IMG/VR virus record: IMGVR_UViG_3300028800_000001
Span: 263,296-327,295 of that record
DNA length: 64,000 nt
Source of the DNA: a virus
Direction: 5' to 3' (one strand)
The first letter of the stretch is position 1. Each line of letters begins with the position of its first letter. Below are positions 221 to 17,462 of the stretch, piece by piece. Below the pieces are notes generated by a model that ran no database searches, had not been told where the DNA came from, and was given only the letters and a program-made list of their open reading frames with translations. The translations under genes were made by a program, and so were the position numbers.

Positions 221-240
221 ATTTCTTTCTTCTTTCTTTT

Positions 241-1029
241 TTAACAATTGTGGAAGCGATACGGGATCGAAGCCGCATCTAGCTTATCAGTGATTGCTTT
301 GGTTGCATACTTACGCTCCATGAAGACCACTTCTTCAATGTGCTTCACGCGTAACCCCTTGTGATACTGCACCTCTGGATAGGAACGCACCTGCTGCACA
401 CTGGTATAGGAGAGGACGGTGTTGAGGTAACTGGTATCCACTGCTCGGTGATCAGGCGCGGCTACTGGCATTGCCACCAGTTCCATATAGCCACCAAGAG
501 ATGCCTTTCCCAGGCTGTCATCAAACGTAAAGGTCGCTTTACGAGCCACTACATCACGCTTGAACTTTACGGCGATTTGGCCGTACATGCCAACGCTATC
601 ACGGCTTCCTCCCAGCTCACCGTCTGGACTATTGGTCATATATCCGTAGACCGGACGTTTGGTTGGCTCCATATCTTCTGGATAGGAGAACATTGCCAGC
701 TCAAACCTTGCGCGTCCGTCAGGATGATACGAGCCACAAGAGTTCCCTGTTTCAAACTGTGATTTGAAGCGTCCTTCCTCAAGAATCTTTTCGAAGGCCG
801 TAGAACGAACACGCATCCAAAGACCACTTTCGTCTACCAGCTTTTTGACGTGGGCGTCTACCAGCTTTAAAAAAGCTTCAGCCGTGATGCCACGATAATT
901 TGCATGATATTTGACGGTATTCTCAGCATCCTTGTCATAGACGGCCAACATCTTGTCAGAAGGGCGAACATCTTTCAGACGATTGGATGCACCAGGAAAG
1001 CGTTTTGTCGTTGCAACAGCGGTACCCAT
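241..1029 (-). CDS. member of the multi-copy 'GRFKSQFETG / RPxYGY / YPExQxH / GIPY' module family (262 aa), function unknown
   Basis: ORF track. Conserved motifs WMRVRS, GRFKSQFETGNS, RPVYGYMT, YGQIAVKFK, FTFDDSLG, YPEVQYHKG, EVVF, SIPYRF are shared with 1162..2103, 6811..9870 (twice), 12188..13006 and 13223..14170. Strong RBS AAGGAG and an AT-rich promoter lie upstream. Confidence 0.6.
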   Translation of the reverse strand: MGTAVATTKRFPGASNRLKDVRPSDKMLAVYDKDAENTVKYHANYRGITAEAFLKLVDAHVKKLVDESGLWMRVRSTAFEKILEEGRFKSQFETGNSCGSYHPDGRARFELAMFSYPEDMEPTKRPVYGYMTNSPDGELGGSRDSVGMYGQIAVKFKRDVVARKATFTFDDSLGKASLGGYMELVAMPVAAPDHRAVDTSYLNTVLSYTSVQQVRSYPEVQYHKGLRVKHIEEVVFMERKYATKAITDKLDAASIPYRFHNC

Positions 1030-1034
1030 AATAA

Positions 1035-1144
1035 TCTCCTTGAATTAATTATTTTTTTATTTTCCCGCGTAAATCTCTTTACAAAATTAATTATATGCCA
1101 CTAGTATGTAAAAGACAAGCTTTTCTTCTATGAATATTCAGAAA
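1035..1144 (-). promoter_or_regulatory. promoter/leader for 241..1029: TTCTGAATATTCA element, then -35 TTGTCT, N17, -10 TATAAT, then TAATTTT, then AATAATTAATTCAAGGAGA leader
   Basis: Minus-strand reading ...ctgtatttctgaatattcatagaagaaaagcTTGTCTtttacatactagtggcaTATAATtaattttgtaaag...ataaaaaaataattaattcaaggagattattATG. The architecture is almost identical to 39589..39720. Confidence 0.5.
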
Positions 1145-1161
1145 TACAGAAAAGTGGTACT

Positions 1162-2103
1162 TTACGCATGTGGGTTTTTTGCACGATAGGGAATGCCCAA
1201 TGCTTTCAGCTTTTTTACGACTGCGGGTTTGATGTCAGAGCCGTTCTCAAAGACGACTTCAGCAATGTGAGACGTGTTGACGCCACCATGATATTGTGCT
1301 TCAGGGTACGTAGGAACTTCAGCAAGACTGGCATACTTGAGAGGGCTGTCATATTTGAGTGCTGCGAAGCCTGTATGATCTGGCTTTGAGAGTGCAGAAG
1401 GCAGCAAATAGCCAGCAGAAGAGAGTGAATCGTTGCCTGTCCAGGTTGTGTTGTCTTTTATACTCTCTTTTAAGCGTACGGAGACAGAGCCGTACATATC
1501 AACGGTGTCACCCCAACCGGCCTTTGTGGGATCAGCACTTTTGAGGCGTCCATCGCCGTCAGCCGAGAGATAGCCGTATATCGGACGATCTTCATCTTCA
1601 GTTTTCATTTGGTCGTAGCCAAAAAGGTCTTCTTCCACACTAGCGCGATGCCAAACATCCAATAATCCGCCAGATTTACCGGTTTCATGTTGTGATTTGA
1701 AGCGACCATCTGTCAACACCTTGCCGAGTATTTGTGGACGCACTCGTATCCAGGGCTGTGCATCCTTAAAGAGATCAACTGCTTTTTGATCAAGCGCTTT
1801 GGTGTAGTCTTCAACGCTCATGCCAGCTTTGGCTGCTTTAAATGCAAAGACCGTGGCCTTATTGTTGTTATACTTATCAATGATTGCTTGTGGTGGTTTG
1901 AGCTTTTGTAAAATCTTAGGCACAAGGTTATTGGGATGCAGTGGATTCTTCGGTCCTGGCGTTCTGGTGCCATCGCGTGCCACAATCAGGTGCGCTTCTC
2001 CTGCGGTAGAAAAGCGTCCAAGATGATCATGATGTGGGTTGTACTTCTCTTGAAGTTGCAGCACAAGACGTTTAATCAGCCGAATGTCTTTTTGAAAATA
2101 CAT
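1162..2103 (-). CDS. KYNPxH-leader module-family protein (313 aa), function unknown
   Basis: N-terminus LQLQEKYNPHHDHLGRFSTAGEAHLIVARDGTRTPGPKNPLHPNN. Core motifs PWIRVRP, GRFKSQHETGKSGG, LFGY, RPIYGYLS, YGSVSVRLK, TWTGNDSL, YPEAQYHGG, EVVF, GIPYRA. Confidence 0.65.
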   Translation of the reverse strand: MYFQKDIRLIKRLVLQLQEKYNPHHDHLGRFSTAGEAHLIVARDGTRTPGPKNPLHPNNLVPKILQKLKPPQAIIDKYNNNKATVFAFKAAKAGMSVEDYTKALDQKAVDLFKDAQPWIRVRPQILGKVLTDGRFKSQHETGKSGGLLDVWHRASVEEDLFGYDQMKTEDEDRPIYGYLSADGDGRLKSADPTKAGWGDTVDMYGSVSVRLKESIKDNTTWTGNDSLSSAGYLLPSALSKPDHTGFAALKYDSPLKYASLAEVPTYPEAQYHGGVNTSHIAEVVFENGSDIKPAVVKKLKALGIPYRAKNPHA

Positions 2104-2171
2104 ACAAATCTCCAGGCAGAAAAAAGTGTGGTTGCTTTTTATTTTGTGTGAAGATTTGTATGAACGAAGTT

Positions 2172-2444
2172 TTACGAAGCAGGAATGATTTTGACACCTT
2201 TGAGCAATTCTTCTAGCTTGTTTTGGTCACCATCATACTTTTGCCAGGGATCACGTGCTCCCAGCGATACTAAGGGAAGGGGTGGATACAGTGTTTTACT
2301 ATTGAGATCTAACACACACCCATATTTCAGGTCTTTGTTTCCGTGTTCTGGCACGTCGGCTGAGAGGACATAAAGATTGGGATCGTCAGGATGCGATGCA
2401 ATGATTGTTTGTTTTCCCATTGGGGGTTTCTCCTTACTATGCAA
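2172..2444 (-). CDS. small partner-family protein (90 aa) upstream of module-family gene 1162..2103
   Basis: KTLYPPLPLVSLGARDPWQKYDGDQNKLEELLKG matches the 11896..12174, 13008..13220 and 1..220 products. Confidence 0.5.
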   Translation of the reverse strand: MHSKEKPPMGKQTIIASHPDDPNLYVLSADVPEHGNKDLKYGCVLDLNSKTLYPPLPLVSLGARDPWQKYDGDQNKLEELLKGVKIIPAS

Positions 2445-2883
2445 CTTTCTTTACTACTACTAATAACAAATTTTTGAGTGCCAAAATTTCTGCATCCTGT
2501 GCTTCAAGATGCTTTTTTAGCTCTTCATTTTCATGAAAGATCTTGAGCGTGGTTTGATACGTTTCTTCCGCTTGCAATTGCTGATGTCTTCCTAACACGT
2601 CTTGCCCGACCGATAAAATTGATAAGGCAACTAATTGGATGAATGTCTGGCTTGTCCACTGCACATACTGATTGGCGGTTGCATGAAAACCAGGAAAGCC
2701 AAGGATGGCAAGAAATACAAAGAAGTAAGCACACCACATGTTGCTGAGCACATTGGTTACAAAAACCGCCACACGTTGATTGAAGCCACCTGCTTTGCGT
2801 TCTAATGCTTGCAACACATTGACGTTACGCACTTTGTGTGGGTGTTCTTTGTGTTCATATAAAGTTACTTTGTGATCACTCAT
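2437..2883 (-). CDS. membrane protein with 2 TM segments and an N-terminal coiled coil (148 aa), possibly lysis- or virion-associated
   Basis: Hydrophobic stretches FFVFLAILGFPGF and FIQLVALSILSVG; heptad-like N-terminus. Overlaps the stop of the upstream gene. Confidence 0.4.
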   Translation of the reverse strand: MSDHKVTLYEHKEHPHKVRNVNVLQALERKAGGFNQRVAVFVTNVLSNMWCAYFFVFLAILGFPGFHATANQYVQWTSQTFIQLVALSILSVGQDVLGRHQQLQAEETYQTTLKIFHENEELKKHLEAQDAEILALKNLLLVVVKKVA

Positions 2884-2896
2884 CGCTTCCTACTTC

Positions 2897-4234
2897 TTAC
2901 GAATAATAAAAGGTCACACCAGGGCAGTTGGCTACCCCATTGGAAACAATGCCTACGGAAGCACGACCACCTCCACCAATGCTATAAATGCTGCCAACTG
3001 TAGCATTGGCTGGAATAGAAAGCAGCTTTGTTCCACTATTGGTGGTGGCATTGTCATAGATATCAAGCTGCGCGGTTCCGGTCGTTGTCACTACTGCACT
3101 CCAAAGATAGCCAGGAGTGCCTTTGACCACCACATTACCTGCGGTATTGGCAGCTTGCGCAGCGTTCGCCGTCGCTCCAGCCGTGAGCCATGGATTCGTA
3201 TTTTGTGTATTTCCAGGCTGCACTGTCCAGGTTCCTGCTTGCGCACTTTGCATCCCACCAGGAGCAGAACTACTGGTGTAGAGCTCTAGTGTCGCGTTTG
3301 CGGTGCCGCTGGTATACGCCGTCATGCGCACACGAAAGTAGCGAAACGTCACCGCTCGTTCATAGATGACACTCACTGTATTGGTAGTAGTTGAGAGTAG
3401 TGAGCCACTGGTAACATTGGTCATGAGCACATTGACAAAAGCAGCGCCATCATTAGAACCTTGAAATGTGAGTGTTCCTGAATAGGCACTAGAACTAATA
3501 TGAATACTCAGCCATTTATACGCACTGACATCTGTAGAGGGAACCAGATCAGCATTGAGTGATGCGGCGCTCAGCCCTGTTTGTTCAGTAAAGTTTCCTC
3601 GTACTGCCTGTGAACCAGCGGCGTCTATCATTGCTTTATTTGTGCCAGCGCTATCAACCACAGTGACTCCACCGACAAGATTGCTTCCAGCAGGAAGGCT
3701 AGAGAGCAAACTAATATCACCGGTTGCAGCGCTTGCATTTAAGGTTACCGTGAGTGTTTCTGTACTTCCAAGCACACTTGCACGCACACGTATCTTTGTC
3801 AGCCCTGCACAATTTCCTCCTAGCTCCAACGGGCCAGGGCCAACAATGCTTTGCACTGATGTGCTGGTCAAAGAGCCGCCCACTTTTATCCCTTTGGCGA
3901 TCCAGTTTGTGCCATCGACACTGCCATCGACCACGATTGTTGTTGCAGAAGTAAAAGTGCTCAGTGCCACAATTTCTGCTTTCCAGCTTCCTTGACCAGC
4001 ACCAAGAGAAAGGACAACGGTGCCACCAGCAATCGGTGTTTGCTGCGTGCTTTGTGCAGCAGTAATCGTACCGCTTACGCTGAGATCGCTCGTGCTACTG
4101 TAAAGTGGGTTGACAGCAACTCCCAACGCATTATCAGACGTATCCACAAGCACTGTTGGGTGCACAATCATTACCGTACTGTTCGGGCCGGTGTCCACGC
4201 CTGGGACGGTTGGCTCTGTTTGATTAATAGGCAT
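2897..4234 (-). CDS. tail fibre / receptor-binding-like protein (445 aa), rich in T/S/G/A/V
   Basis: The N-terminal 45 aa MPINQTEPTVPGVDTGPNSTVMIVHPTVLVDTSDNALGVAVNPLY are near-identical to the N-terminus of 5370..5822. The rest is a low-complexity Thr/Ser/Gly/Ala beta-rich sequence typical of fibres. Confidence 0.6.
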   Translation of the reverse strand: MPINQTEPTVPGVDTGPNSTVMIVHPTVLVDTSDNALGVAVNPLYSSTSDLSVSGTITAAQSTQQTPIAGGTVVLSLGAGQGSWKAEIVALSTFTSATTIVVDGSVDGTNWIAKGIKVGGSLTSTSVQSIVGPGPLELGGNCAGLTKIRVRASVLGSTETLTVTLNASAATGDISLLSSLPAGSNLVGGVTVVDSAGTNKAMIDAAGSQAVRGNFTEQTGLSAASLNADLVPSTDVSAYKWLSIHISSSAYSGTLTFQGSNDGAAFVNVLMTNVTSGSLLSTTTNTVSVIYERAVTFRYFRVRMTAYTSGTANATLELYTSSSAPGGMQSAQAGTWTVQPGNTQNTNPWLTAGATANAAQAANTAGNVVVKGTPGYLWSAVVTTTGTAQLDIYDNATTNSGTKLLSIPANATVGSIYSIGGGGRASVGIVSNGVANCPGVTFYYS

Positions 4235-5368: not shown

Positions 5369-5369
5369 A

Positions 5370-5822: not shown

Positions 5823-5896
5823 TGTTTTCTCCAGTACAAATCATTGCAACAGAAATGCTATTTTTGTTTGTACTGAAGAATTTAGGAGAAATACAG

Positions 5897-6814
5897 TTAT
5901 TTTTGTTCGTGGCCTTGCAGGGCAAATGCAGTGCGATCTTCCCCAATGCAGAGCCAGAGATTTTCAAACAAGAGTGCTTCGGCAGGAACACTCATTGTTG
6001 GAAAAGCAGCATCTTTGTCAATATACGCTAAAGTGCAGTGTGGTGTAAAGCCATGTGTGTTGTCAATAGGAACAGGCAGAGACGTTCGAAGCTGTTCACG
6101 CCACTCTGCTATCCCTGGAAGGTCTACAGAGGCGTAAAACGGCAGCGTAGCGCTCTCTGTGGGGGTGTTTGTGAAGCACCCGATCCCTGAGACAATGCCA
6201 TGTACCGGAACCGCGTTTGTCGCATAGTCACCGATTGCTTTTTTGAGCTGTGCGGAAAGGGCATCAGGAACATTCTCAGCGCTTCCTAGTATCATCAAAG
6301 TGACATGCAGCTCTTGTGGCTCACATTTCCCTTCACAGTCCAGTGCTATTTTTTGTGCGGCATCTGGCTCCAGATAAAATGCCACCATGATTGGCAAGGC
6401 CGACACAGGTTTAGGTTGCTCTGGTGTTTCTTCTTTGCGTAGCCACAGCGTCTTTAAAAAAGAAACATGCTCTTCGTTGGCGCGAAAGATTGGCGTCTGC
6501 AAAAAGTCTTTGACAGCTATATCGTGTGCTGCAAGATAGCCAATTAATTGTTCTTCATTCTTGACAGGCAACGTCCATGTCGTCTCTTCAAAGATGCTTT
6601 TCTTCTTTGCAGGTTCTTCATCTGAAAGGGTTGCGCGCTCCTCTTCTGGGAGATCATCAAGATTTTCACAAGGCAGCACACGATTCAAAAAATCTTCACG
6701 TGCTTCATCAGTCAATTGGTGCCGTTGCAAAAACTTGGCAACGCGGCGTGAGAGATCAGGTGACATATTGTCAGGTACACTGCTTTTTGCACTATCGTCT
6801 TTGAGTATTTTCAC
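5897..6814 (-). CDS. 2H phosphoesterase superfamily protein (LigT / cyclic phosphodiesterase-like) with an acidic N-terminal extension (305 aa)
   Basis: Two H-x-T-x motifs at the expected spacing: ELHVTLMILG (around aa 170) and FTPHCTLAYI (around aa 262). Confidence 0.6.
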   Translation of the reverse strand: MKILKDDSAKSSVPDNMSPDLSRRVAKFLQRHQLTDEAREDFLNRVLPCENLDDLPEEERATLSDEEPAKKKSIFEETTWTLPVKNEEQLIGYLAAHDIAVKDFLQTPIFRANEEHVSFLKTLWLRKEETPEQPKPVSALPIMVAFYLEPDAAQKIALDCEGKCEPQELHVTLMILGSAENVPDALSAQLKKAIGDYATNAVPVHGIVSGIGCFTNTPTESATLPFYASVDLPGIAEWREQLRTSLPVPIDNTHGFTPHCTLAYIDKDAAFPTMSVPAEALLFENLWLCIGEDRTAFALQGHEQK

Positions 6815-9800
6815 AAAGTGTCTCCATTCAAAATGGTTTTGCCTACACGGGTTGCTGTTCTATTTAAAACTACCAGAAAGTCAGCACGTTTATTGATCGA
6901 ATCTACATGAGAGCGATCAACATAAATGGCATCATAGCCCTTCATTGCGGCGTAGCGACCAGGATCGTTGGCAAGATCAAAGAGCCGATCAATGCGGCGT
7001 GACTCCGTATACTTCCCAGCATCATCCAAGGCTTTGCCCCGTGTACGCAAATCATTCTTGTAGTCAATCCACTCATTGATTAAACGTCCCTTCTCAATTG
7101 CGGTGGTATTTTTGAGTACGGACATATGCAGCACATCATCGCCATAAGTAGCGGCCACATGAGACGCACTATATCGGTCAGATACTCCTTCTGTGGTAAG
7201 CGCGGTATAGGTTCCGTTGCCATAGACGCCAAGTCCTGCAAAATAGTGCCCACTTTGATAGCTTGCAGCATAGCCCAGGCCGTCAGAGGGATCACCACCA
7301 TCATCCACACCGCGATAGAGCTCAGCCTCACCGTCTTTAATGTGCTGCGCAAGCACATTATCTTCAACCACATGTGGAGGGCCATCAAACCCCTGTGCTT
7401 TATAGATTTCCTGTAAGCAGGCGTCGGCATCCGTGGCGCTACTGCTTCCTGGGATTGGGCCTTTGCCTGTATCCATATAGTTTTTGACGTAGGGAATATC
7501 TTCAGGGTTGCTATATTTGGCTTCCGTCTTCTGAAATTCCTGGTTATCAGGGTGTTTCGGTCCTTTCTCGCGGGTACCATCAGCATGCACAAGCAGGTGT
7601 GCATTTTCTGTCGTGGTAAATTTCCCTACGTGATCATGCGCAGGGTTGTACTTTTCTTCAAACTGCTCAACACTTTTTGTTCCTGAGACGCGGTAAGAAA
7701 TGCCTTTGGCTTTGAGTTGTGCCTCAAGCGGTGGTGTAAGCTCATAATCATTATGAAACACAATTTCTGCAATAGTTGAGGTGTTTAGACCACCATGAAA
7801 TTGTGCCTCTGGATAGCCGCGTACATCACTCACGTTTTGGTAGGTCAGTGGATCTGGACCATGCACACTAAAATTGGTATGATCAGGATGCAGCATGCTT
7901 CCTGGCAAGAGATAGCCACCCATACCAAGTGAGTCATCACCTGTCCAGGTGGTTTTTTGCTTCACCTCTGGTTTGAAGCGAACCGCAACGCCTCCATATT
8001 CATCAACAGAGTCGAACATGCCATGCCGCGTCTGTCTCAGGCTTGCGCCGTCAGGATGATCGCTTAGATAGCCGTAAAGTGGACGCTGCTCTTTGGCAAG
8101 ATCGTCTGGATAGCCAAAGAGATCATGTTCTGCTTCAGAACGTGAATCGTGATCCATAATTCCCGCAGAGGTATTGGTTTCAAATTGCGACTTGAAGCGT
8201 TCATCATCCAATATCTTTGAAAGAATTGTTGGGCGTACCCGCATCCAAGGTTCTGCATTCTTGAGCAGTTCCACGGCTTTGTCATCAACGGCTTTGTTGT
8301 ACTCTTCAGCCGTCATGTTATGCGTCTGCGCATGCTTTTCAGCGAACGCTGCACCTTGTATGTCATATTTTTTGAGGACGGCGTCTGGTGGACGCACCTG
8401 TTCTAAGATATCTTTTTTCTGATTATCAGGATGCGCCGGTCCTTTTTCAGTGGTACCATCACGATGCACTAAAAGGTGGGCATTTTCGGTGGTCGTAAAT
8501 TGTCCATTGTGCCCGTGGGCTGGATTATATTTCGCTTCGCCTGTGAGCAGCTCTTGATCACGTGCGGATAAATCTTCTAGCGATTGCACACCCATCAAAC
8601 GATTGAAAAAGTCCTGACGCTCTGCGAGTGTCCAAGAGGCCGCAACAGGGCCAGCAAGAAACTTTTCTACCAGTGGTACTAGATCAGGGGCAAGCGTATC
8701 AGGGATTGTGTTAATGGCTTGATTTTCTGCATCAGTGATTTGATCTTTATGTTCTGGGGTATCATCATCTATTTCCTCGTCATTTTGCTTCTCCTCTGGT
8801 AAATACAATGAAAGATCAAGTGGTTCATGCATCTTGCCGTGGCTGCGATGCCCTGGCTTTTTGCGCGGCACAGGGATAACGCCATGAGCAGGTTTGCCGT
8901 GAGGAGCCGCATGTGGTTTTGCAGCAGGTGCGCCGTGAGCAGCAGCAGGTTTCTTGAGTGGCTTCACGCTCGTTGGCACTGCTGGATGCTTTGGTGGCAT
9001 TCCACCGGTTTGTGACTCAGGGTGTGCCGTAATCTTGAAAAAGTCTTCCCAGGTGGGATTCTTCATTCCAGCTAGCTGATGCAAAATCTCAAAACGTTTT
9101 GCGAAACCTAACGCTGCTTCATCATTGGCTGCATACTCTTTTGAGAGGATCAGGGCTTTGGTTTCTTTGGTGAGAAACTTTCCCAGGATGCCATGATCAA
9201 TGCTGTTGCGCAGAAAACTTTTTCCAATGACTTTCATCAGAAAGCTATGCGACTGGATTGCAATATCTTTTTTGACGAGTGCCGAAGAAAGTTGTGTCAG
9301 GTTAATCTTGCCGGTCTTTTGATTGAGGGTATAGTGTCCAGATTGATCTTGTTTCATGCCAAGAATATATTCCAACATGCCGACTTTGGTCACCTGATCA
9401 GGGGGCATTTTCTCCATTGCCTCGGTTGCCGTCTTATCATCCAGGGGAGTGCTTTTTACATCCTCAGAGACCACTACGGGCTCTTTGTCCACTGTTCCAC
9501 TGTGGACTACAGGCACCGTATCAGAGGCTCCTACCAGATCTGCAATGCGGCTTGCACCGGTCTGTGAAAAGGCAATGCGCGTGCTACCAGTGGGCACAAT
9601 ACGATACGTCTTGCCATTAATGTTGGCGGTATAGACGCCGTCAGCCCCTCTGGTCATTGCCCCTTTGTCGGAGAGGGCTTTCGCAATGTGGGCAGGCATG
9701 GTGGTGAGCACATCAGCGTGCACACCGCCTGCGCCATCATCAGCACCGATGAATTGTCCGGTCGTAGTGCTGTGATTACGGTTATATTTTTCTTCAGGAA

Positions 9801-9870
9801 GATAGAGTGTAAGGTCAGGTTTCTCCTGTTCTTCTATCTCTTTACGAAAGAGAGCATAATGATACTTCAT
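6811..9870 (-). CDS. 1019-aa polyvalent protein: N-terminal unique region, His/Pro/Ala/Lys-rich linker, two tandem KYNPxH-leader + GRFKSQFETN modules, C-terminal ~230-aa domain
   Basis: Repeated LYLPEEK(Y/Q)N, EAKYNPAHGHNGQFTTTENAHLLVHRDGT and EEKYNPAHDHVGKFTTTENAHLLVHADGT. One complete core module (WMRVRP, ERFKSQFETNTSAG, RPLYGYLS, TWTGDDSL, YPEAQFHGG, GISYRV). C-terminus has ELYRGVDDG...GVYGNGTY. Low-complexity linker KPAAAHGAPAAKPHAAPHGKPAHG. Confidence 0.7.
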   Translation of the reverse strand: MKYHYALFRKEIEEQEKPDLTLYLPEEKYNRNHSTTTGQFIGADDGAGGVHADVLTTMPAHIAKALSDKGAMTRGADGVYTANINGKTYRIVPTGSTRIAFSQTGASRIADLVGASDTVPVVHSGTVDKEPVVVSEDVKSTPLDDKTATEAMEKMPPDQVTKVGMLEYILGMKQDQSGHYTLNQKTGKINLTQLSSALVKKDIAIQSHSFLMKVIGKSFLRNSIDHGILGKFLTKETKALILSKEYAANDEAALGFAKRFEILHQLAGMKNPTWEDFFKITAHPESQTGGMPPKHPAVPTSVKPLKKPAAAHGAPAAKPHAAPHGKPAHGVIPVPRKKPGHRSHGKMHEPLDLSLYLPEEKQNDEEIDDDTPEHKDQITDAENQAINTIPDTLAPDLVPLVEKFLAGPVAASWTLAERQDFFNRLMGVQSLEDLSARDQELLTGEAKYNPAHGHNGQFTTTENAHLLVHRDGTTEKGPAHPDNQKKDILEQVRPPDAVLKKYDIQGAAFAEKHAQTHNMTAEEYNKAVDDKAVELLKNAEPWMRVRPTILSKILDDERFKSQFETNTSAGIMDHDSRSEAEHDLFGYPDDLAKEQRPLYGYLSDHPDGASLRQTRHGMFDSVDEYGGVAVRFKPEVKQKTTWTGDDSLGMGGYLLPGSMLHPDHTNFSVHGPDPLTYQNVSDVRGYPEAQFHGGLNTSTIAEIVFHNDYELTPPLEAQLKAKGISYRVSGTKSVEQFEEKYNPAHDHVGKFTTTENAHLLVHADGTREKGPKHPDNQEFQKTEAKYSNPEDIPYVKNYMDTGKGPIPGSSSATDADACLQEIYKAQGFDGPPHVVEDNVLAQHIKDGEAELYRGVDDGGDPSDGLGYAASYQSGHYFAGLGVYGNGTYTALTTEGVSDRYSASHVAATYGDDVLHMSVLKNTTAIEKGRLINEWIDYKNDLRTRGKALDDAGKYTESRRIDRLFDLANDPGRYAAMKGYDAIYVDRSHVDSINKRADFLVVLNRTATRVGKTILNGDTL

Positions 9871-10493
9871 TCGGACTCCTCAACTTCAGCCAGAACGCGC
9901 TCCAGCGCAATTAATTGTTCATTGGAAAGTTTTTCCAGATCAATTGTTAGCTTGTTATGGGTGACGCTTTCTGAGAGCCCTGGAATGTTCTCCATCGCAA
10001 TTTGTTCCGTTGCTGCACCACGTGCCACACGCTCCAGGGAGGAAGCTTCTTTAAAGAGCATGACAGCAGCAGTGGCTCCAAAACGTTTCTCTTTAATCAG
10101 ATCAGTGATTTGCTGTGCTGCTTTAATTGCCATACCAGAGCCGAGTGTGGCATGATTCTCATTCATCTTCTCAATTTCAGCATCACGCTTGCGCTTTTTC
10201 TCTTCTAATTGCTCTTTATCATAGCTACGCACCTGCTCTTGCCAGCCATAGGCACTGCTCCAAATGCCTATTTGCTTATGTGAAGAGCTAATTAATTTTT
10301 CTCTCTTCTCGTCCGTGACCTGTGGTGGAAAAACGCCACTGGCTAGCAGCCGTTCTTGTTCAGCACGCAGCCGCTCCTCCACCAATTGTTCAGCAAGCCT
10401 GCGCAAGCTTCTGGTGTAGCCTTGTTGTTTATAAAGTTCTAATGCATAGAGTGAACGGGTGGTTTCTTCACCCTTTGGCAGTTTACGCGCCAT
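9867..10493 (-). CDS. coiled-coil protein (208 aa), possibly scaffold-like
   Basis: E/K/R/L/Q-rich heptad-like sequence throughout. Start overlaps the stop of 6811..9870 by 4 nt. Confidence 0.45.
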   Translation of the reverse strand: MARKLPKGEETTRSLYALELYKQQGYTRSLRRLAEQLVEERLRAEQERLLASGVFPPQVTDEKREKLISSSHKQIGIWSSAYGWQEQVRSYDKEQLEEKKRKRDAEIEKMNENHATLGSGMAIKAAQQITDLIKEKRFGATAAVMLFKEASSLERVARGAATEQIAMENIPGLSESVTHNKLTIDLEKLSNEQLIALERVLAEVEESE

Positions 10494-10610
10494 ACTTGTC
10501 TCCCCAAGAGATAGTTTTCTTTTTCGTATTTGGTATTTCTCTTTGAGAAGATTTGGAGATTTGATGGGGGATTAATTTTTGAGGTTGTTTCTTTTTCTAA
10601 GTATTTTTTA

Positions 10611-10850
10611 TTACATGGTCTCAATAGAGAGTTCGTTGTCCTTTTTTTTAATTTCTTTTGCCCATAAGACACTGGTGAGCGTTTGCAACAAATAGAGGAG
10701 AATCTTTTCATCAGGAAGATGTGTTTCCTCTTTTGCACCAGCAATAACGTTGCGTAATTCTTCCTGTTTTTCTCCTGTATAGGTAAACACCGATGCAGCA
10801 AAAGAAATAGTTCCGTATACCGTTGGCCCGTAGCCAATTTCTAGCGTCAT
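10611..10850 (-). CDS. hypothetical protein (79 aa)
   Basis: ORF track only. Confidence 0.3.
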   Translation of the reverse strand: MTLEIGYGPTVYGTISFAASVFTYTGEKQEELRNVIAGAKEETHLPDEKILLYLLQTLTSVLWAKEIKKKDNELSIETM

Positions 10851-10865
10851 ATCATCTCCTTTTTT

Positions 10866-11837
10866 TTAATCAGTAAAGAAGGAAGCAGGTTTTCTTTTTT
10901 TGGCGTCCCTACTCTCCCATGGAATTGTTGCAATGACCGCATTCAATGCATTCATCGTCGGATCTTTTTTGCTTTTACTCAGTAGTGCAATTGCATGCAA
11001 ACGTAACTCCAATGCTTTGATCGTACGATCATTCGCTCCAGTGTAACGTGCCATCCGTACAATTTCGTCAGCATGCTCTACAAAAGATCTGAGTACTTTT
11101 TTATTAAATGGCTTCTCGTTTGGATCAGTAGAGCGGGTACCTGTCGCATCTTTAAAAGGGGGCGTGGTGTAATTCGTTGCAATCTTTGACTCAAAGTCAT
11201 TGGTAATTTCATCAGTGCGCAAAGCAAGTCCCATATCGATAAGTTTTAATCCCTTCTCGCCTTTTTGTGTTGAATCAACTAAATAGTTCCCTAAATGACG
11301 ATCACGATCATGAACGACATACTCATAGAGACGAAGTTTCGCATAATTCTCTATACTTAATTTGCTCACCGCAGCCACGCGCTGTTCTTTTGAGAGTGCA
11401 AGCATTGGTGTTCCCTCAACCCACGGCTGGACAGTAACATCTTGTCCATTACGTGCCATTTTTTGCACTGGAAGAGTAAAGTCGCTCACTCCAAGCACGT
11501 CAGCCGTCTTCGATGAAAAAACTGCACGTTCTTCCTGATTGGAAATGCCCATTGCGTCTGCTTCATCGCTGTTCTTTTTTACCAAATAGTTTTTTCCAGC
11601 AATGGTTGTCTTGTAGGTTGCATTCAAACTATCGCCACGCCCAAATTGCTGCAATGATGCTGTTTGAAGTTGCCCCTGGCTAGGAAAGCGTTTATCACTA
11701 TTTGGAGTCATATCTAGAGCCGAAGGCGATGACGCAAATCGACCATCTTCCTCATCGTGATAATAATTGTACTTGCGCTGATAGGCATATCTTCGTAACC
11801 GTACGGCTCGCGGCATCTTACATCTCTCCTGATACAA
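10866..11837 (-). CDS. protein kinase-like (HxDxxxxN...DMG) domain protein with a KYN-type N-terminal leader (323 aa)
   Basis: N-terminus LRRYAYQRKYNYYHDEEDGRF resembles the KYNPxHxxxGxF leader. Catalytic-loop-like VHDRDRHLGNYLV and DFG-like LIDMGLA. AT-rich promoter upstream. Confidence 0.55.
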   Translation of the reverse strand: MYQERCKMPRAVRLRRYAYQRKYNYYHDEEDGRFASSPSALDMTPNSDKRFPSQGQLQTASLQQFGRGDSLNATYKTTIAGKNYLVKKNSDEADAMGISNQEERAVFSSKTADVLGVSDFTLPVQKMARNGQDVTVQPWVEGTPMLALSKEQRVAAVSKLSIENYAKLRLYEYVVHDRDRHLGNYLVDSTQKGEKGLKLIDMGLALRTDEITNDFESKIATNYTTPPFKDATGTRSTDPNEKPFNKKVLRSFVEHADEIVRMARYTGANDRTIKALELRLHAIALLSKSKKDPTMNALNAVIATIPWESRDAKKRKPASFFTD

Positions 11838-11840
11838 AAG

Positions 11841-11898
11841 GATAATTAATTATTTATTTTGTGAGTGCGAGACATTTCTTTTTAAAATTAATTATTTA
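11841..11898 (-). promoter_or_regulatory. AT-rich bipartite promoter/leader for 10866..11837 (minus: TAGACA-N18-AATAAT-TAATTTT ... ATAAATAATTAATTATCC-RBS)
   Basis: Same TAATTAATTTT / AATAATTAATT paired elements as at 1.04, 17.46, 25.89 and 39.60 kb. The promoter overlaps the stop of 11896..12174. Confidence 0.4.
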
Positions 11899-12174
11899 CA
11901 TCGTTTCGATATCATGTCTATCTTCTTTTTTCTCAGCCAAACTATCGGCAACAGGGGTTGCATCCTTTAGCCATTCTTGTAGTACGTCTTGAGAGTCGGT
12001 GTAAGGTTCCCACTCTTGTCTGCTTTGCAGTGTCGCAAGGGCATTGACTGGATACAGTTTTTTCTCATCACTGTAGTAGATTTGCCCCAGGTGTTGTGTA
12101 CGTCCATAGAGCATTCCTGTGCCCAGGTCAAGCAGGTAATACCCATCTTCGTCACGTCCAAGTATTTTTTTCAT
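11896..12174 (-). CDS. small partner-family protein (92 aa) upstream of kinase-like gene
   Basis: MKKILGRDEDGYYLLDLGTGMLYGRTQHLGQIYYSDEKKLYPVNALATLQSRQEWEPYTDSQDVLQEWLKDA is a paralogue of 13008..13220, 2172..2444 and 1..220. Confidence 0.5.
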   Translation of the reverse strand: MKKILGRDEDGYYLLDLGTGMLYGRTQHLGQIYYSDEKKLYPVNALATLQSRQEWEPYTDSQDVLQEWLKDATPVADSLAEKKEDRHDIETM

Positions 12175-12187
12175 TTTCTTTTCTCCT

Positions 12188-13006
12188 TTAAAGCTTTACC
12201 GTAAATGGAATGCCTGCGCTGTTCAGTGCCTTTTTTATAGGGGCTGTTGGTGCTTTCCCATGAAAGGTAACACTTTTGATATCGCTTGTTGAGACTCCAC
12301 CATGCACCTGTGCTTCCATATATTCATTTGCCAGATCACGTGGTCGCAAGGGATCAATACCGTTATAGAGTGGATAAATGCGACTATCAGGATGCGTCAC
12401 TGGTTGTGGAATGACGCTTTCGTAGTGTCCACCAGAGGTCATTGCCAGTGAATCACCATAGGTCATAGTAGCACGATCTCGTGTTTCTGGCTTTAGTTCA
12501 ACAGCTACGTTCCCATATTGAGAAACATCTGCATCAGTATTGTCTCCATGAGTATCTTTTGAGAGATATCCATAAATGGGACGGTTCTCCACCCCTGCTT
12601 TTGCTTCATCAAATCCAAAGGCACCAGATTCTAGTTTATCTCTTGAATCTTTGGCAACGCTTCCGCCACTCTTGTTTGTCTCGAATTGACTTTTGAAGCG
12701 ACCGCCATCCAATATTTTTTGGAGTGCTGACGGTTTTACTCGTACAAAGAGTCCAGTATCTTTGACTGCATCTTGCGCTTGCTTATCAAGCGTTGCTTTG
12801 TAGGCATCAGGTGAGAGACCATGACGCTCCCCAAAGATTTCGTAACGCAGATGGGTGTTGTCAGCAAACTCAGAGGCCCAGTGCTCTGTAGGATGTACTC
12901 CCAGGCTTTCTAGTGTCTTGCCGGAACCACCCTCAGAAATAAATTCACCATTTGCATCGCTATGCGCATGATTGTATTTCCTTTGGACTGCGTAGCGAAA
13001 CCGCAT
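12188..13006 (-). CDS. KYN-leader module-family protein (start adjusted to MRFRYAVQRKYNHAHSD), function unknown
   Basis: The ORF-track start at 13168 overlaps the upstream gene. The internal Met at 13006 abuts the stop of 13008..13220. Core motifs FVRVKP, GRFKSQFETNKSGG, RPIYGYLS, YGNVAVELK, MTYGDSL, YMEAQVHGG, GIPFTV. Confidence 0.55.
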   Translation of the reverse strand: MRFRYAVQRKYNHAHSDANGEFISEGGSGKTLESLGVHPTEHWASEFADNTHLRYEIFGERHGLSPDAYKATLDKQAQDAVKDTGLFVRVKPSALQKILDGGRFKSQFETNKSGGSVAKDSRDKLESGAFGFDEAKAGVENRPIYGYLSKDTHGDNTDADVSQYGNVAVELKPETRDRATMTYGDSLAMTSGGHYESVIPQPVTHPDSRIYPLYNGIDPLRPRDLANEYMEAQVHGGVSTSDIKSVTFHGKAPTAPIKKALNSAGIPFTVKL

Positions 13007-13007
13007 A

Positions 13008-13220
13008 TTACTCTCCAACCTTCTTTGCCGTCTTGAGCCACTCATTGACTTTTTCTTGTACACCATCATAGGGCTCCCAGGCAGTTCCACGCGTGAGCAT
13101 CGTGGCAATGGATTGTGGTGGATACAAGAGATGTTTCTCTTGATCATAAATCTGGCCCATTTTTTCATCTTCAGTCAGGATGAAGCGTACTCCATCATCA
13201 GAGACAGCAAATATTTTCAT
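13008..13220 (-). CDS. small partner-family protein (70 aa)
   Basis: MKIFAVSDDGVRFILTEDEKMGQIYDQEKHLLYPPQSIATMLTRGTAWEPYDGVQEKVNEWLKTAKK. Confidence 0.5.
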   Translation of the reverse strand: MKIFAVSDDGVRFILTEDEKMGQIYDQEKHLLYPPQSIATMLTRGTAWEPYDGVQEKVNEWLKTAKKVGE

Positions 13221-13222
13221 GG

Positions 13223-14170
13223 CTATGATGCTCCTGCTACGCTATACGGAATATTTTCTCGTTGTAATAATTTAGTCAGCGCCGCGCTTGGTGCTTTACT
13301 ATGAAAGACAACGTGTGCAATGTGACTTTTTGAGACACCGCCATGCATTTGTGTTTCGGTGTACACATCTTTGATGAGTGAGGTATTTCCTTCTGGACTG
13401 TTATAATTGCTTGCTGCGGTCCCTGTTGGCTTGAGTACTGGATTAGGGAGCATTCGTGGTGCATCCTCACTTCCTCCTTCGTCAAGCGAATCGCCAAGTG
13501 TAAACGTACTTTTTGCCCTCACTTCAGGTTTGAAGCGGATTGCCACATCACCGTAAGCTGAGGCAAAGTTTTGTTCGCCATTTGCACCATCACTTAAATA
13601 CCCGTAAATTGGTCGATCTTCTGACTTGGTCTTTTGATCATAGCCAAACATCTGCTCTTCTTGTTCAGCTCGACTCTCAAGATAGTTGGTCAGTTTGATC
13701 TTATTGGCTCCAATAGCCGCGCCGGTCTTATTGGTTTCGAAGGCACTCTTAAAACGACCATCAGTAAGAATGCCTTGCAGTCCTTTGCTTGATGTTCGTG
13801 TCCATAACTCTCCAGGCGTTACCAGGGCAACAATGTGTGCATCTTCGCGTGCTTTGAGTGCATCAGCCGTGATAGGTTTTCCTAAATCCGTCCATGAGTC
13901 AGCAAAGTTCTTGAGTCGCTGATTGTACGTAGCTTCAAAATTCTTTGTCCAGGCGGCACTCGGATGCACATTTTTCAGCACCGGATCAAGTTGATTGTCA
14001 GGATGCTTTGGCCCCAGCGTTCGCGTTCCATCACGTGCGACAGAGATATGAGCTTCGCCAGCCGTTGAGAACTGTCCCAAATGATTGTGATGTGGGTTAT
14101 ATTTTTGTGCCCAGGCATGTGCCAACATCCGCATCCGTTTCATACGATCATAGAGAAAAATGTCTTCCAT
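13223..14170 (-). CDS. KYNPxH-leader module-family protein (315 aa)
   Basis: QKYNPHHNHLGQFSTAGEAHISVARDGTRTLGPKHPDNQ, then GRFKSAFETNKTGA, RPIYGYLS, YGDVAIRFK, FTLGDSL, YTETQMHGG, HVVF, NIPYSV. Confidence 0.65.
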   Translation of the reverse strand: MEDIFLYDRMKRMRMLAHAWAQKYNPHHNHLGQFSTAGEAHISVARDGTRTLGPKHPDNQLDPVLKNVHPSAAWTKNFEATYNQRLKNFADSWTDLGKPITADALKAREDAHIVALVTPGELWTRTSSKGLQGILTDGRFKSAFETNKTGAAIGANKIKLTNYLESRAEQEEQMFGYDQKTKSEDRPIYGYLSDGANGEQNFASAYGDVAIRFKPEVRAKSTFTLGDSLDEGGSEDAPRMLPNPVLKPTGTAASNYNSPEGNTSLIKDVYTETQMHGGVSKSHIAHVVFHSKAPSAALTKLLQRENIPYSVAGAS

Positions 14171-14182
14171 CAGAGCTCCTTG

Positions 14183-17440: not shown

Positions 17441-17462
17441 CTTCTCTTCCTCGGTGCGCAGT

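What the first reader, a model, noticed from the sequence alone, without database searches (positions are those of the whole stretch)
241..14170. Expanded paralogous family built on a conserved ~250-aa module (GRFKSQFETG ... RPIYGYLS ... GDSL ... YPEAQxHGG ... GIPY) with a KYNPxHxxxGxF N-terminal leader
Five genes (241..1029, 1162..2103, 6811..9870 with two modules, 12188..13006, 13223..14170) share a module with invariant R-V-R, GRFKS-FET, FG(Y/F), RP(I/V/L)YGY(L/M)(S/T), YG-V-V, T-T-GDSL, E-Q-H-G and (G/S)IPY positions. I cannot assign it to a known domain. The invariant S (GDSL), H (QxHGG) and acidic residues could be a hydrolase or transferase active site. Several copies, plus the unrelated kinase-like protein 10866..11837, begin with (R/Q/E)KYN(P)xHxxxG(R/Q/K)F, a shared leader that could be a virion-packaging or processing signal. 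The multi-copy, multi-fusion pattern resembles phage polyvalent or injected effector proteins.
Basis: partly seen in the sequence, partly recalled or inferred. Interest (0 to 1): 0.7.

Follow-up and report, generated by a model that had tools for sequence, protein, structure and literature searches.

The report
Five phage SopF-like ADP-ribosyltransferases with shared leader
An uncultured phage carries five diverged copies of an enzyme domain related to the Salmonella toxin SopF (an ADP-ribosyltransferase); most copies have a short leader peptide that recurs in phage head proteins and a small partner gene alongside, so they are probably effectors loaded into the virion and injected into the host.

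Summary
Five minus-strand genes share a ~250-aa module, but the 1019-aa protein holds one module, not two. Its "second" is only the leader.

The module is assignable. It is Pfam DUF3626, the catalytic domain of Salmonella SopF, an NAD+-dependent ADP-ribosyltransferase. A family profile hits SopF (E 1e-8). An AlphaFold model (pLDDT 89.5) has SopF as best PDB match, then DarT and Tpt1. SopF's catalytic Glu aligns with the invariant Glu of Y-x-E-A-Q-x-H. The proposed GDSL Ser/His hydrolase site is not supported.

In other phages the domain is usually the C-terminus of large proteins fused to MuF, portal or other effector domains. That is the known injected-toxin or polyvalent-protein pattern.

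The KYN(P)xHxxxGxF leader occurs seven times, at each domain's N-terminal boundary. It is kept at the amino-acid level despite many synonymous changes, and a related phage conserves it. It is a variant of KFNPYHDxxGRF, found in over 119 viral contigs in portals, MuF proteins, XkdF-type proteases and effector polyproteins. I found no description of it.

A new point is an unannotated 70-92-aa gene family next to four of the five copies and directly after DUF3626 genes in many phages. This resembles a toxin-immunity pair. Packaging, processing, target and immunity are inferred, not shown.

The parts
13223..14170 (-). DUF3626/SopF-like ADP-ribosyltransferase paralogue 5 (315 aa). It has the extended ~45-aa leader, with the core KYNPHHNHLGQF at 14069-14104.
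   Evidence: Pfam PF12294 E 2.1e-9; phrog_8314; module HMM E 6e-135; leader
13008..13220 (-). Small partner protein (70 aa). It lies 2 nt after paralogue 5 and 1 nt before paralogue 4. Candidate immunity protein or inhibitor.
   Evidence: Family alignment; HMM hit E 7e-32; same family directly downstream of DUF3626 genes in 31 of 75 viral loci
12188..13006 (-). DUF3626/SopF-like ADP-ribosyltransferase paralogue 4 (272 aa). It has a short leader, KYNHAHSDANGEF, at 12941-12979. This is the protein that was modelled.
   Evidence: Pfam PF12294 E 1.4e-12; AF2 pLDDT 89.5; Foldseek top hit SopF 7dn8_A E 5e-7; metagenome gene calls give 272 aa
11896..12174 (-). Small partner protein (92 aa), 13 nt after paralogue 4.
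   Evidence: AF2 pLDDT 84.6, beta-sheet plus two helices, no PDB fold match
10866..11837 (-). PI3/PI4-kinase-like effector candidate carrying the same leader (KYNYYHDEEDGRF at 11736-11774).
   Evidence: Pfam PI3_PI4_kinase E 0.0025, below cut-off. In L001 the homologous domain is fused after an ADPrib_exo_Tox ART and a leader.
9867..10493 (-). Terminase small subunit. Its stop overlaps the start of the 1019-aa gene.
   Evidence: phrog_6299 'terminase small subunit' E 8.9e-14; conserved in L001
6811..9870 (-). Polyvalent 1019-aa protein. Layout: leader 1 (9751-9789), unknown domain, P/A/H-rich linker, ~55-aa helical element, leader 2 (8497-8532), DUF3626 module (about 7669-8538), leader 3 (7618-7653), then an unassigned C-terminal domain (about 6814-7503).
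   Evidence: The C-terminal domain has 55 homologues, no Pfam match and only a weak ART hint. The L001 orthologue carries two ADPrib_exo_Tox domains instead of DUF3626.
5897..6814 (-). 2H (LigT-like) phosphoesterase. Its N-terminus shares the ~55-aa helical element with the 1019-aa protein. It is another likely effector of the cluster.
   Evidence: Pfam 2_5_RNA_ligase2 E 1.9e-9; sequence comparison
2172..2444 (-). Small partner protein (90 aa), just upstream of paralogue 2.
   Evidence: HMM E 8e-34; alignments
1162..2103 (-). DUF3626/SopF-like ADP-ribosyltransferase paralogue 2 (313 aa) with the extended leader (KYNPHHDHLGRF at 2011-2046).
   Evidence: Pfam PF12294 E 8.5e-5, below gathering score; module HMM E 1e-150; phrog_8314 E 2e-12
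241..1029 (-). DUF3626/SopF-like ADP-ribosyltransferase paralogue 1 (262 aa), without a leader.
   Evidence: Pfam PF12294 E 1.6e-8; no motif
2..244 (-). Fourth small partner gene, overlapping the stop of paralogue 1 and cut by the window end. It is complete in L017 (5414-5671).
   Evidence: HMM E 3.7e-16 for window 2-283, E 3.7e-17 for L017; jackhmmer

Best explanation
The region is an effector cluster of an uncultured tailed phage, wrapped around the small-terminase gene. Five paralogous genes encode SopF-type (DUF3626) NAD+-dependent ADP-ribosyltransferases. These keep the aliphatic-Tyr-Glu catalytic positions of SopF (RP[I/V/L]Y, YG and Y-x-E-A-Q).

I propose that these enzymes are made late, loaded into the procapsid and delivered into the next host cell with the DNA. 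There each would ADP-ribosylate a different host target. The same would apply to the kinase-like protein, the 2H phosphoesterase and the other domains of the 1019-aa polyvalent protein.

The KYN(P)xHxxxGxF leader is the local form of a widespread phage motif, Phi-x-K-F-N-P-Y-H-D-x-x-G-R-F-[TS]-[TS] followed by a Gly/Ser/Ala linker. It marks the N-terminal boundary of each cargo domain. I propose it is a docking and/or prohead-protease processing signal that replaces covalent fusion to MuF or portal. It would then be functionally analogous to the T4 capsid-targeting sequence.

The 70-92-aa proteins encoded beside four of the five transferases are proposed to be cognate inhibitors (immunity proteins). 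They would keep the enzymes silent in the producing cell.

Shown: homology and fold, conservation of the catalytic Glu, domain architectures in relatives, motif distribution, and gene adjacency.

Inferred: enzymatic activity, packaging, cleavage, immunity and the targets.
For: Identity of the module:
- Pfam DUF3626 hits all five proteins (E 1e-12 to 8e-5).
- DUF3626 is the SopF domain (PMC6682159). SopF is an ADP-ribosyltransferase with an I-Y-E triad, solved as PDB 7DN8 and 7DN9 (PMC10333799).
- A 120-sequence family profile hits 7dn8 at E 1e-8. It aligns RPIY, YG and Y.EAQ.HG with SopF's RPIYAAL, YGKSFF and YIEAHIHG. That Glu is the residue changed to Asp in the NAD+ complex 7dn9.
- The AF2 model has pLDDT 89.5 and pTM 0.86. 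Foldseek ranks SopF first (E 5e-7, probability 1.0), followed by DarT and Tpt1, which are all ART folds.
- The Glu, the Tyr and RP.YG are invariant or nearly so across 120 and 59 sequences.

Head association of the domain:
- At least 110 viral contigs carry the domain.
- Of 59 non-redundant ORFs, 21 have MuF, 3 have minor-capsid-2, 2 have portal, 4 have ADPrib_exo_Tox and 2 have 2H domains.
- Three independent loci show a 594-855-aa DUF3626 protein in or next to the packaging and head genes: between portal-side genes and the major capsid gene in two, and just upstream of terminase and portal in the third.
- Mycobacteriophage Tierra gp9 is annotated 'capsid maturation protease and ADP-ribosyltransferase'.
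- In the window the cluster flanks TerS.

Leader:
- 7 copies against 0 in 200 shuffles.
- It is conserved as protein with many synonymous changes, for example 11 identical, 19 synonymous and 12 non-synonymous codons between two copies.
- It is predicted to be flexible (pLDDT 55-60).
- In the syntenic phage L001 it precedes every cargo domain: DUF3626, three ADPrib_exo_Tox domains, a kinase-like domain, a GNAT-like domain and others.
- The strict DNA pattern finds more than 119 viral contigs, with up to 10 copies in one. About 0.1 would be expected by chance, by my estimate.
- Of 58 motif-bearing ORFs, 10 are portals, 7 have MuF and 7 have an S78-type prohead protease. The rest carry toxin or effector domains.
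- The motif lies 12-20 aa after the portal domain in 6 of 6 portals checked. In protease polyproteins it lies at the N-terminus or at domain junctions.
- At least 16 of 55 homologues of the unrelated C-terminal domain start with HPRDxxGRF or YNPNQPRDERGRF variants.

Small partner:
- Four paralogues lie next to four of the five transferases, with gaps or overlaps of 1 to 13 nt in the three downstream cases and about 70 nt in the upstream one.
- The same family lies directly downstream of the DUF3626 gene in 31 of 75 viral loci.
- The reverse check held in 3 of 3 look-ups that started from the small protein.
Against: - No window protein is itself fused to MuF, portal or a protease. No portal, MuF or protease gene was identified in the 64-kb window.
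- There are no virion proteomics or expression data, so packaging and cleavage are inferred only from what relatives look like.
- On its high-coordinate side the cluster abuts DNA-hypermodification genes (Tet/JBP, methyltransferase). Such genes are not typical head genes.
- SopF needs the eukaryotic GTPase ARF1 for activity (PMC12560355), so activity of the phage enzymes without a cofactor is uncertain.
- Two of the five modules score below Pfam's gathering threshold.
- One paralogue lacks the leader, and the copy inside the 1019-aa protein has no adjacent small gene.
- Mycobacteriophage L5 gp2 has neither a leader nor a detectable member of the small family, so neither feature is obligatory for the domain.
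- The small protein has no structural or annotated relative, so calling it an immunity protein rests on gene position alone.
Confidence: 0.6

Rival explanations
1. The transferases are ordinary cytoplasmic host-takeover enzymes, like T4 ModA and ModB, and are never packaged. The shared leader would serve another purpose, for example binding a common host or phage partner, regulating stability, or oligomerisation.
For: The window proteins are stand-alone and not fused to head proteins. The cluster abuts DNA-modification genes. L5/D29 gp2 homologues sit at the genome left end without a leader.
Against: Both the domain and the motif are repeatedly fused to portal, MuF and prohead protease domains in other phages. 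The cluster surrounds TerS. The motif also occurs in portal proteins themselves, which are not host-takeover enzymes.
Confidence: 0.22
2. The small adjacent proteins are not immunity proteins. They would be packaging chaperones or adaptors, or activating cofactors of the transferase, playing the role ARF1 plays for SopF.
For: SopF is cofactor-dependent. The small family shows conserved positions (invariant Arg and Trp, with an S-x-LARGYWE consensus) although members share only about 20-35% identity, so it is not clearly hypervariable in the way many immunity proteins are. It is coupled to the transferase gene.
Against: A small gene directly downstream of a toxin domain is the canonical polymorphic-toxin/immunity arrangement described for MuF toxins (PMC5576092). 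The paralogues within the window are only about 25-36% identical, as expected for partners that co-diverge with their toxins.
Confidence: 0.25
3. The module is a Ser/His/acid hydrolase (GDSL-type).
For: D-S-L and Q-x-H-G-G are well conserved within the phage family.
Against: Profile and fold searches give the ART fold with SopF, DarT and Tpt1, and no hydrolase. In the alignment to SopF the Ser position is Ile (DSL against DIY). The invariant Glu aligns with SopF's catalytic Glu.
Confidence: 0.02
4. The module is a non-catalytic structural virion domain, and the leader similarity comes only from recent duplication or recombination.
For: Many relatives are annotated only as 'minor capsid protein' or 'hypothetical'.
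Against: The catalytic positions are invariant across thousands of homologues. The leaders differ by many synonymous substitutions, which indicates selection on the peptide. They are also attached to unrelated domains in unrelated phages.
Confidence: 0.03

Closest known systems
Salmonella T3SS effector SopF (Pfam DUF3626/PF12294; PDB 7DN8, 7DN9)
   Same: Homologous catalytic domain: profile E 1e-8, best structural match, and the RPIY / YG / Y-x-E-A-x-x-H-G motifs including the catalytic Glu. Both are effectors delivered into a target cell.
   Different: SopF is secreted by a type III system into eukaryotic cells, is activated by ARF GTPases and modifies Gln124 of ATP6V0C. The phage proteins would act in bacteria on unknown targets. 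Their N-terminal regions differ, and they carry additional near-invariant GRFKSQFET residues. They occur as five paralogues with leaders and small partner genes.
MuF polymorphic toxins of temperate phages (Jamet et al. 2017, PMC5576092)
   Same: A variable C-terminal toxin domain, often an ART, is proposed to ride in the capsid and be injected, and is followed by an immunity gene. Many DUF3626 homologues have exactly this MuF-toxin layout.
   Different: The window proteins lack the MuF domain and carry a short leader instead. DUF3626 is not mentioned among the toxin domains in the main text of that paper. Five copies occur in one genome.
Polyvalent proteins of phages and conjugative elements (Iyer et al. 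2017, PMC5512222)
   Same: The 1019-aa protein and its 1175-aa L001 counterpart string several effector domains (ARTs, 2H-type neighbours, a kinase-like domain) into one polypeptide encoded next to packaging genes.
   Different: No zincin-like MPTase processing domain was detected. Domain boundaries are instead marked by the KYNPxHDxxGRF motif, and a term search of that paper turned up no such motif.
Phage T4 capsid-targeting sequence of internal proteins, and packaged Alt ADP-ribosyltransferase
   Same: It works like this system is proposed to work: a short N-terminal peptide directs cargo into the prohead and is removed by the prohead protease, and an ART is injected with the DNA. This is established T4 knowledge (reviewed in PMC9958956; see also PMC9503650).
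   Different: There is no sequence similarity. The T4 signal is cleaved at L/I-x-E, whereas this motif also occurs internally, in portals and in protease polyproteins. Its function is untested.
Mycobacteriophage L5/D29 gp2 and Tierra gp9
   Same: They carry the same DUF3626 domain (HMM E 3.5e-23 and 1.7e-31). Tierra gp9 is already annotated 'capsid maturation protease and ADP-ribosyltransferase'.
   Different: They are single copies. No leader motif was found, and no detectable member of the small partner family lies downstream. L5/D29 gp2 is still annotated as hypothetical.
DarT (DNA ADP-ribosyltransferase toxin of DarTG)
   Same: It is the next-best structural neighbour (Foldseek E 7e-4), and it is a toxin with a cognate neutraliser.
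   Different: There is no sequence-level relationship. DarG is a macrodomain that reverses the modification, whereas the partner here is a small protein with a new fold.

Membership tests
DUF3626 / SopF-like ADP-ribosyltransferase (PF12294) | Match to the Pfam PF12294 model above its gathering score (27 bits) | tested here: met
   Three of five are above the threshold (47.7, 37.3 and 34.3 bits). Two are below it (23.1 and 22.1 bits) but are unambiguous paralogues: 31-41% identity and module HMM E below 1e-118.
DUF3626 / SopF-like ADP-ribosyltransferase (PF12294) | Sequence-profile and fold similarity to the solved SopF structure | tested here: met
   hmmsearch against 7dn8 gives E 1e-8. Foldseek against 7dn8_A gives E 5e-7, probability 1.0 and TM 0.54/0.51 with a model of pLDDT 89.5.
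DUF3626 / SopF-like ADP-ribosyltransferase (PF12294) | Catalytic triad (aliphatic-Tyr-Glu; 'I-Y-E' in SopF) | tested here: met
   The Glu is invariant in all five modules and aligns with the SopF Glu that is Asp in 7dn9. The Tyr of YG and the I/V/L of RP(I/V/L)Y are conserved. Assignment of the I and Y positions is by alignment only. The primary SopF structure paper could not be read.
DUF3626 / SopF-like ADP-ribosyltransferase (PF12294) | NAD+-dependent ADP-ribosylation of a substrate, and ARF-GTPase activation as in SopF | not testable with these tools
   These are biochemical properties. ARF does not exist in bacteria, so this feature probably does not carry over.
MuF polymorphic toxins | N-terminal MuF (PF04233) domain | tested here: not met
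   No MuF hit in any window protein. MuF is present in 21 of 59 viral homologues and in 15 of the 118 listed protein homologues.
MuF polymorphic toxins | Variable C-terminal toxin domain followed by a small immunity gene | tested here: inconclusive
   The toxin-type domain is present. A conserved small gene lies next to four of the five copies and directly downstream in 31 of 75 viral loci. Immunity function was not tested.
Polyvalent proteins (Iyer et al. 2017) | Two or more distinct effector domains in one polypeptide of a phage or conjugative element | tested here: met
   The 1019-aa protein consists of an unknown domain, DUF3626 and a distinct C-terminal domain family. The L001 1175-aa protein has two ADPrib_exo_Tox domains plus the same flanking domains.
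Polyvalent proteins (Iyer et al. 2017) | Zincin-like metallopeptidase (MPTase) domain for self-processing. This is frequent in the family but not universal. | tested here: not met
   No peptidase family hit in the 1019-aa protein at E up to 0.1.
Capsid-targeting / propeptide signals (T4 CTS type) | The peptide is sufficient for incorporation into proheads and is removed by the prohead protease | not testable with these tools
   Only contextual evidence is available: the motif is found in portals, MuF proteins and XkdF-type protease polyproteins.

The most novel reading that the evidence does not exclude
The K(F/Y)NPxHDxxGRF peptide, with its HPRDxxGRF and (F/Y)(D/N)PxQPRDxxGRW variants, may be a general and so far undescribed 'address label' of tailed phages. 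It would dock cargo domains to the portal or procapsid interior, and/or mark them for cutting by S78-type prohead proteases. If so, any protein carrying it could be predicted to be a virion-delivered effector. In this phage it would label at least seven cargo domains, including five SopF-like ADP-ribosyltransferases, four of which have a gene of a new small inhibitor family alongside.
Probability: 0.3. Interest if true: 0.8.

Novelty: new variant of a known kind. Interest (0 to 1): 0.6.

Why it matters
The finding turns a domain of unknown function into a testable enzyme family. In the library clustered at 50% identity, 4,513 cluster representatives match the module profile at E up to 0.001. 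The matches include gp2 of the model mycobacteriophages L5 and D29, found separately by tblastn.

SopF-type ADP-ribosyltransferases appear to be common phage cargo, not a Salmonella oddity. This raises the question of which bacterial proteins or nucleic acids they modify. It also suggests that SopF may descend from a phage or bacterial-conflict enzyme.

If the leader motif proves to be a packaging or processing signal, it would give a simple sequence rule for finding injected phage effectors in metagenomes, and a tag for loading foreign proteins into capsids.

The conserved small partner family offers a ready-made inhibitor for studying these enzymes.

Tried and rejected
- **Phage identity:** megablast of the first 20 kb against 50,697 phage genomes gave no match, so the phage has no cultured close relative there.
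- **PDB sequence searches:** a single-sequence search and a 5-sequence profile search of the PDB found nothing. Only the 120-sequence profile reached SopF.
- **Literature on the leader:** full-text searches for the leader as a sequence string (QPRD, NPYHD, HDxxGRF and others) and for capsid-targeting motifs found nothing relevant. Term searches of the MuF-toxin and polyvalent-protein papers turned up no such motif. The primary SopF structure paper is not held.
- **C-terminal domain of the 1019-aa protein:** there is no Pfam or NCBIfam hit. The profile search of the PDB gave only a non-significant diphtheria-toxin-like match (E 0.14), and one of 53 homologues touches ART-PolyVal (E 0.004). It is left unassigned as a 'possible ART'.
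- **Small partner:** there is no Pfam, NCBIfam, PHROG or PADLOC hit and no PDB fold match (best E 0.14).
- **Defence systems:** PADLOC gave no defence-system hit for any cluster protein.
- **Host:** the genome-contig scan found only distant DUF3626 genes in Actinomycetes, candidate-phyla bacteria and others, so the host remains unknown.
- **Model phages:** L5 gp3 and Tierra gp10 were tested as members of the small family and are not detectably so.
- **Technical failures:** one 88-sequence alignment failed and was repeated with 58 sequences.
- **tRNAs:** none were found in the window.

Full report
**1. Observation**

The region 1-14200 is one minus-strand gene array. They align over about 250 aa at 31-41% identity with the invariant positions it listed.

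An HMM built from that alignment was searched against every six-frame ORF of the 64-kb window. It finds exactly five full modules. In the 1019-aa protein only aa 445-734 is a module.

The leader core K-Y-N-x-x-H-x(3-5)-G-[RKQE]-F occurs seven times, all in this array. It occurs zero times in 200 residue shuffles. Three copies lie inside the 1019-aa protein at domain boundaries. One heads the kinase-like protein 10866-11837. Gene 241-1029 has none.

**2. What the module is**

All five proteins hit Pfam DUF3626 and PHROG 8314, which has unknown function. DUF3626 is the domain of the Salmonella effector SopF (PMC6682159). SopF is an ADP-ribosyltransferase with an 'I-Y-E' triad, solved as 7DN8 and 7DN9 (PMC10333799).

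Single sequences and a five-sequence profile do not reach the PDB. A profile of the window modules plus 116 homologues hits SopF at E 1e-8. The alignment pairs these segments:
- RPIYGY with RPIYAAL
- YG-V-V with YGKSFF
- T-T-GDS with CTFSPFD
- Y-x-E-A-Q-x-H-G with YIEAHIHG

The aligned Glu is the one replaced by Asp in the NAD+ complex 7DN9.

An AlphaFold2 model of the 272-aa paralogue is confident (pLDDT 89.5, pTM 0.86). Its best PDB match is SopF (E 5e-7, probability 1.0), followed by DarT and the tRNA 2'-phosphotransferase Tpt1, which are all ART folds. The conserved Tyr and Glu fall on predicted strands (144-149, 167-171 and 230-234), as expected for an ART core.

The GDSL-Ser/His hydrolase idea is not supported. 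In the alignment to SopF the Ser position is Ile, and nothing hydrolase-like appears in any search.

**3. Where the domain lives**

The family is large. A full HMMER scan of 1.84 billion representatives gives 4,513 hits at E up to 1e-3 and 731 at E up to 1e-30. Many hits lie inside proteins of 1,000-5,800 aa, and some have several tandem modules. P0294, for example, has four.

IMG/VR holds at least 110 contigs with the domain. In these it is typically the C-terminal domain of a 400-2,400-aa ORF. Among 59 non-redundant ORFs, the co-occurring Pfam domains were:
- MuF: 21
- Phage_min_cap2: 3
- portal: 2
- ADPrib_exo_Tox: 4
- 2H: 2
- ART-PolyVal: 1
- PI3_PI4 kinase: 1

This is the architecture of MuF polymorphic toxins (PMC5576092) and of polyvalent proteins (PMC5512222). 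Both are proposed to be carried in the head and injected.

The domain also occurs in cultured phages. These include Bacillus phages SP-15 and CP-51, Nodularia phages, and 34 mycobacteriophage records including L5 and D29 gp2, which are annotated as hypothetical. Tierra gp9 is annotated 'capsid maturation protease and ADP-ribosyltransferase'. The ART assignment therefore already exists in some phage annotation, although a full-text search for DUF3626 returned only two papers, both on Salmonella.

**4. The window's phage and its relative**

The same phage is assembled in several metagenomes. No cultured relative or host was found. The window encodes a helicase, an endolysin and Tet/JBP, methyltransferase and GNAT genes for DNA modification.

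The 208-aa gene 9867-10493 is a small terminase (phrog_6299, E 9e-14). It overlaps the start of the 1019-aa gene.

A syntenic relative, L001, has this gene order:
- a DUF3626 gene
- a small gene
- TerS
- a 505-aa protein (leader, ADPrib_exo_Tox, leader, kinase-like domain)
- a 1175-aa protein (leader, ART, leader, ART, leader, unknown domain, helical element, leader, C-terminal domain)
- a 2H phosphoesterase
- a leader-tagged GNAT-like protein

The same cassettes are thus shuffled between stand-alone and fused forms. Every cassette begins with the leader.

**5. The leader**

Within the window the four extended leaders are much better conserved than the catalytic domains. They nevertheless differ by many synonymous substitutions, for example 11 identical, 19 synonymous and 12 non-synonymous codons between two copies. 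The peptide itself is therefore under selection. It is modelled with low confidence (pLDDT 55-60).

By my estimate about 0.1 hits would be expected by chance.

Across 164 unique contexts the consensus has three parts: an aliphatic residue at position -2, then K-F-N-P-(Y/N/H)-H-D-x-x-G-R-F-(T/A/S)-(T/S), then a Gly/Ala/Ser-rich stretch. In 46% of uncut ORFs the motif lies within 70 aa of the upstream stop.

Among 58 motif-bearing ORFs, the Pfam content was:
- 10 portals
- 7 with MuF
- 7 with S78-type prohead proteases (6 of the XkdF type)
- the remainder with NUDIX, glutamine-deamidase toxin, ART-PolyVal, 2H, topoisomerase IB, REase toxin, Acb1-like, ART or DUF3626 domains

In six of six portals checked, the motif sits 12-20 aa after the end of the portal domain. 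In protease polyproteins it lies at the N-terminus or between the protease, NUDIX or 2H block and the next effector.

Homologues of the unrelated C-terminal domain of the 1019-aa protein begin with HPRDxxGRF, YNPNQPRDERGRF or YNANHDPANGEF in at least 16 of 55 cases. Some DUF3626 homologues carry FDPSQPRDxxGRW at the same place.

The leader is therefore a genuine and widespread short linear motif of head-interior proteins and their cargo. Its mechanism is not shown. The candidates are docking to the portal, capsid or scaffold, a prohead-protease recognition site, or both. I could not find a description of it.

**6. The small partner**

Four paralogous small genes sit next to four of the five transferases: 13008-13220, 11896-12174, 2172-2444, and 2-244 (cut by the window end). 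The three that lie downstream of a transferase are separated from it by a 2-nt gap, a 13-nt gap or a short overlap; 2172-2444 lies about 70 nt upstream of paralogue 2. L001 has the orthologous pair.

Among the ORFs immediately downstream of DUF3626 genes in the viral loci, 31 of 75 belong to the same family (jackhmmer, E 1e-24 to 1e-7). Starting instead from the small protein, three of three look-ups place it directly after a 594-855-aa DUF3626 protein. Two of these lie between portal-side genes and the major capsid gene, and the third lies just upstream of terminase and portal.

The family has at least 285 members, none annotated and none with a Pfam domain. A confident model (pLDDT 84.6) shows a small beta-sheet plus two helices, with no PDB match.

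This is the gene-order signature of a toxin-immunity pair. A role as chaperone or activator cannot be excluded.

**7. Mechanism proposed**

See the best explanation. Five SopF-type ARTs and the other leader-tagged domains would be virion-delivered effectors. The leader would be the loading and/or processing tag that replaces covalent MuF or portal fusion. The small proteins would be cognate inhibitors.

Shown:
- homology and fold
- conservation of the catalytic residues
- domain architectures in relatives
- motif distribution
- gene adjacency

Inferred:
- enzymatic activity
- packaging
- cleavage
- immunity
- the targets

The main rival is cytoplasmic host-takeover enzymes that are not packaged. 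It is weakened because both the domain and the motif are repeatedly fused to portal, MuF and prohead protease domains.

**8. Novelty**

The enzyme family and the general strategy (injected phage ARTs, MuF toxins, polyvalent proteins) are known. Three things appear to be new:
- the five-fold expansion of SopF-like ARTs in one phage
- the modular leader shared by unrelated cargo domains, and its wide distribution in portal, MuF and protease proteins
- the conserved small partner family

I rate the finding a new variant of a known kind, with moderate to high interest.

Noticed in passing
window 5897-6814 (-) and 8533-8700 (-); L001 17054-18211: A ~55-aa helical element (PDL..FL....W..E.R..F..R......L.DLS.ED..LL) is shared by the N-terminus of the 2H phosphoesterase and the segment just before leader 2 of the 1019-aa protein. 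It is duplicated in the L001 2H protein and also present in the L001 1175-aa protein. It may be a second shared adaptor module.
   Followed up: partly
window 5370-5822 (-), 2897-4234 (-); L001 18283-18681: Three otherwise different proteins (150, 445 and 132 aa) share a nearly identical ~40-aa N-terminus, MP(L/I)NQTEPTVPGVDTGPNST.M(I/L)VHP.VLVD. They have no family hits. They lie next to a GDSL/SGNH-lipase-like 377-aa protein (4235-5368), so they could be fibre or decoration proteins with a common anchor.
   Followed up: no
window 11896-12174 (-), 10611-10850 (-); L001 10946-11212: Three small proteins end with the same C-terminal residues (D/S)IETM just before the stop. The 79-aa protein 10611-10850 is otherwise not detectably related to the small partner family.
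   Followed up: no
window 15757-23190 (-); L002 1-7250: There is a block of DNA-hypermodification genes: two Tet/JBP dioxygenases, an ADDT-family protein, a GNAT acetyltransferase and, in a variant contig, an N6/N4 methyltransferase. The relative L001 instead carries QueD, QueE and FolE-like 7-deazaguanine genes.
   Followed up: no
L226 (Mycobacterium phage L5) 1305-2084; D29 gene 2: gp2 of the model mycobacteriophages L5 and D29 is annotated as hypothetical, but it is a clear DUF3626/SopF-like domain (HMM E 3.5e-23) that retains the Tyr/Glu motifs. It has no leader motif.
   Followed up: partly
P0294 (1213 aa): This metagenomic protein consists of four tandem DUF3626 modules joined by linkers containing a repeated (F)LERHGPVA motif. 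It shows a different way of multiplying the same enzyme, and a different junction motif.
   Followed up: no
L164 2923-10713 (-); L131: A 2597-aa viral ORF carries six copies of KFNPYHDELGRFTTA, and neighbouring ORFs carry more, giving ten in a 14.7-kb locus. It is an extreme polyvalent protein whose domains were not examined.
   Followed up: no
(BFVD hits): Proteins with the DUF3626 fold also occur in giant eukaryotic viruses (Bodo saltans virus, Yasminevirus; E 1e-13 to 1e-11).
   Followed up: no
window 2437-2883 (-) and 14991-15386 (-): Two DUF1003-like small membrane proteins bracket the effector array. A VIT1-like membrane protein lies at 14567-15010. A homologue of the first is also present at the end of L001.
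   Followed up: no
L077 6823-8841, L067 2731-5493, L083 6652-8667: In some phages the small-partner domain appears as the N-terminal part of a 670-920-aa ORF directly downstream of the DUF3626 gene, not as a free-standing small protein.
   Followed up: no
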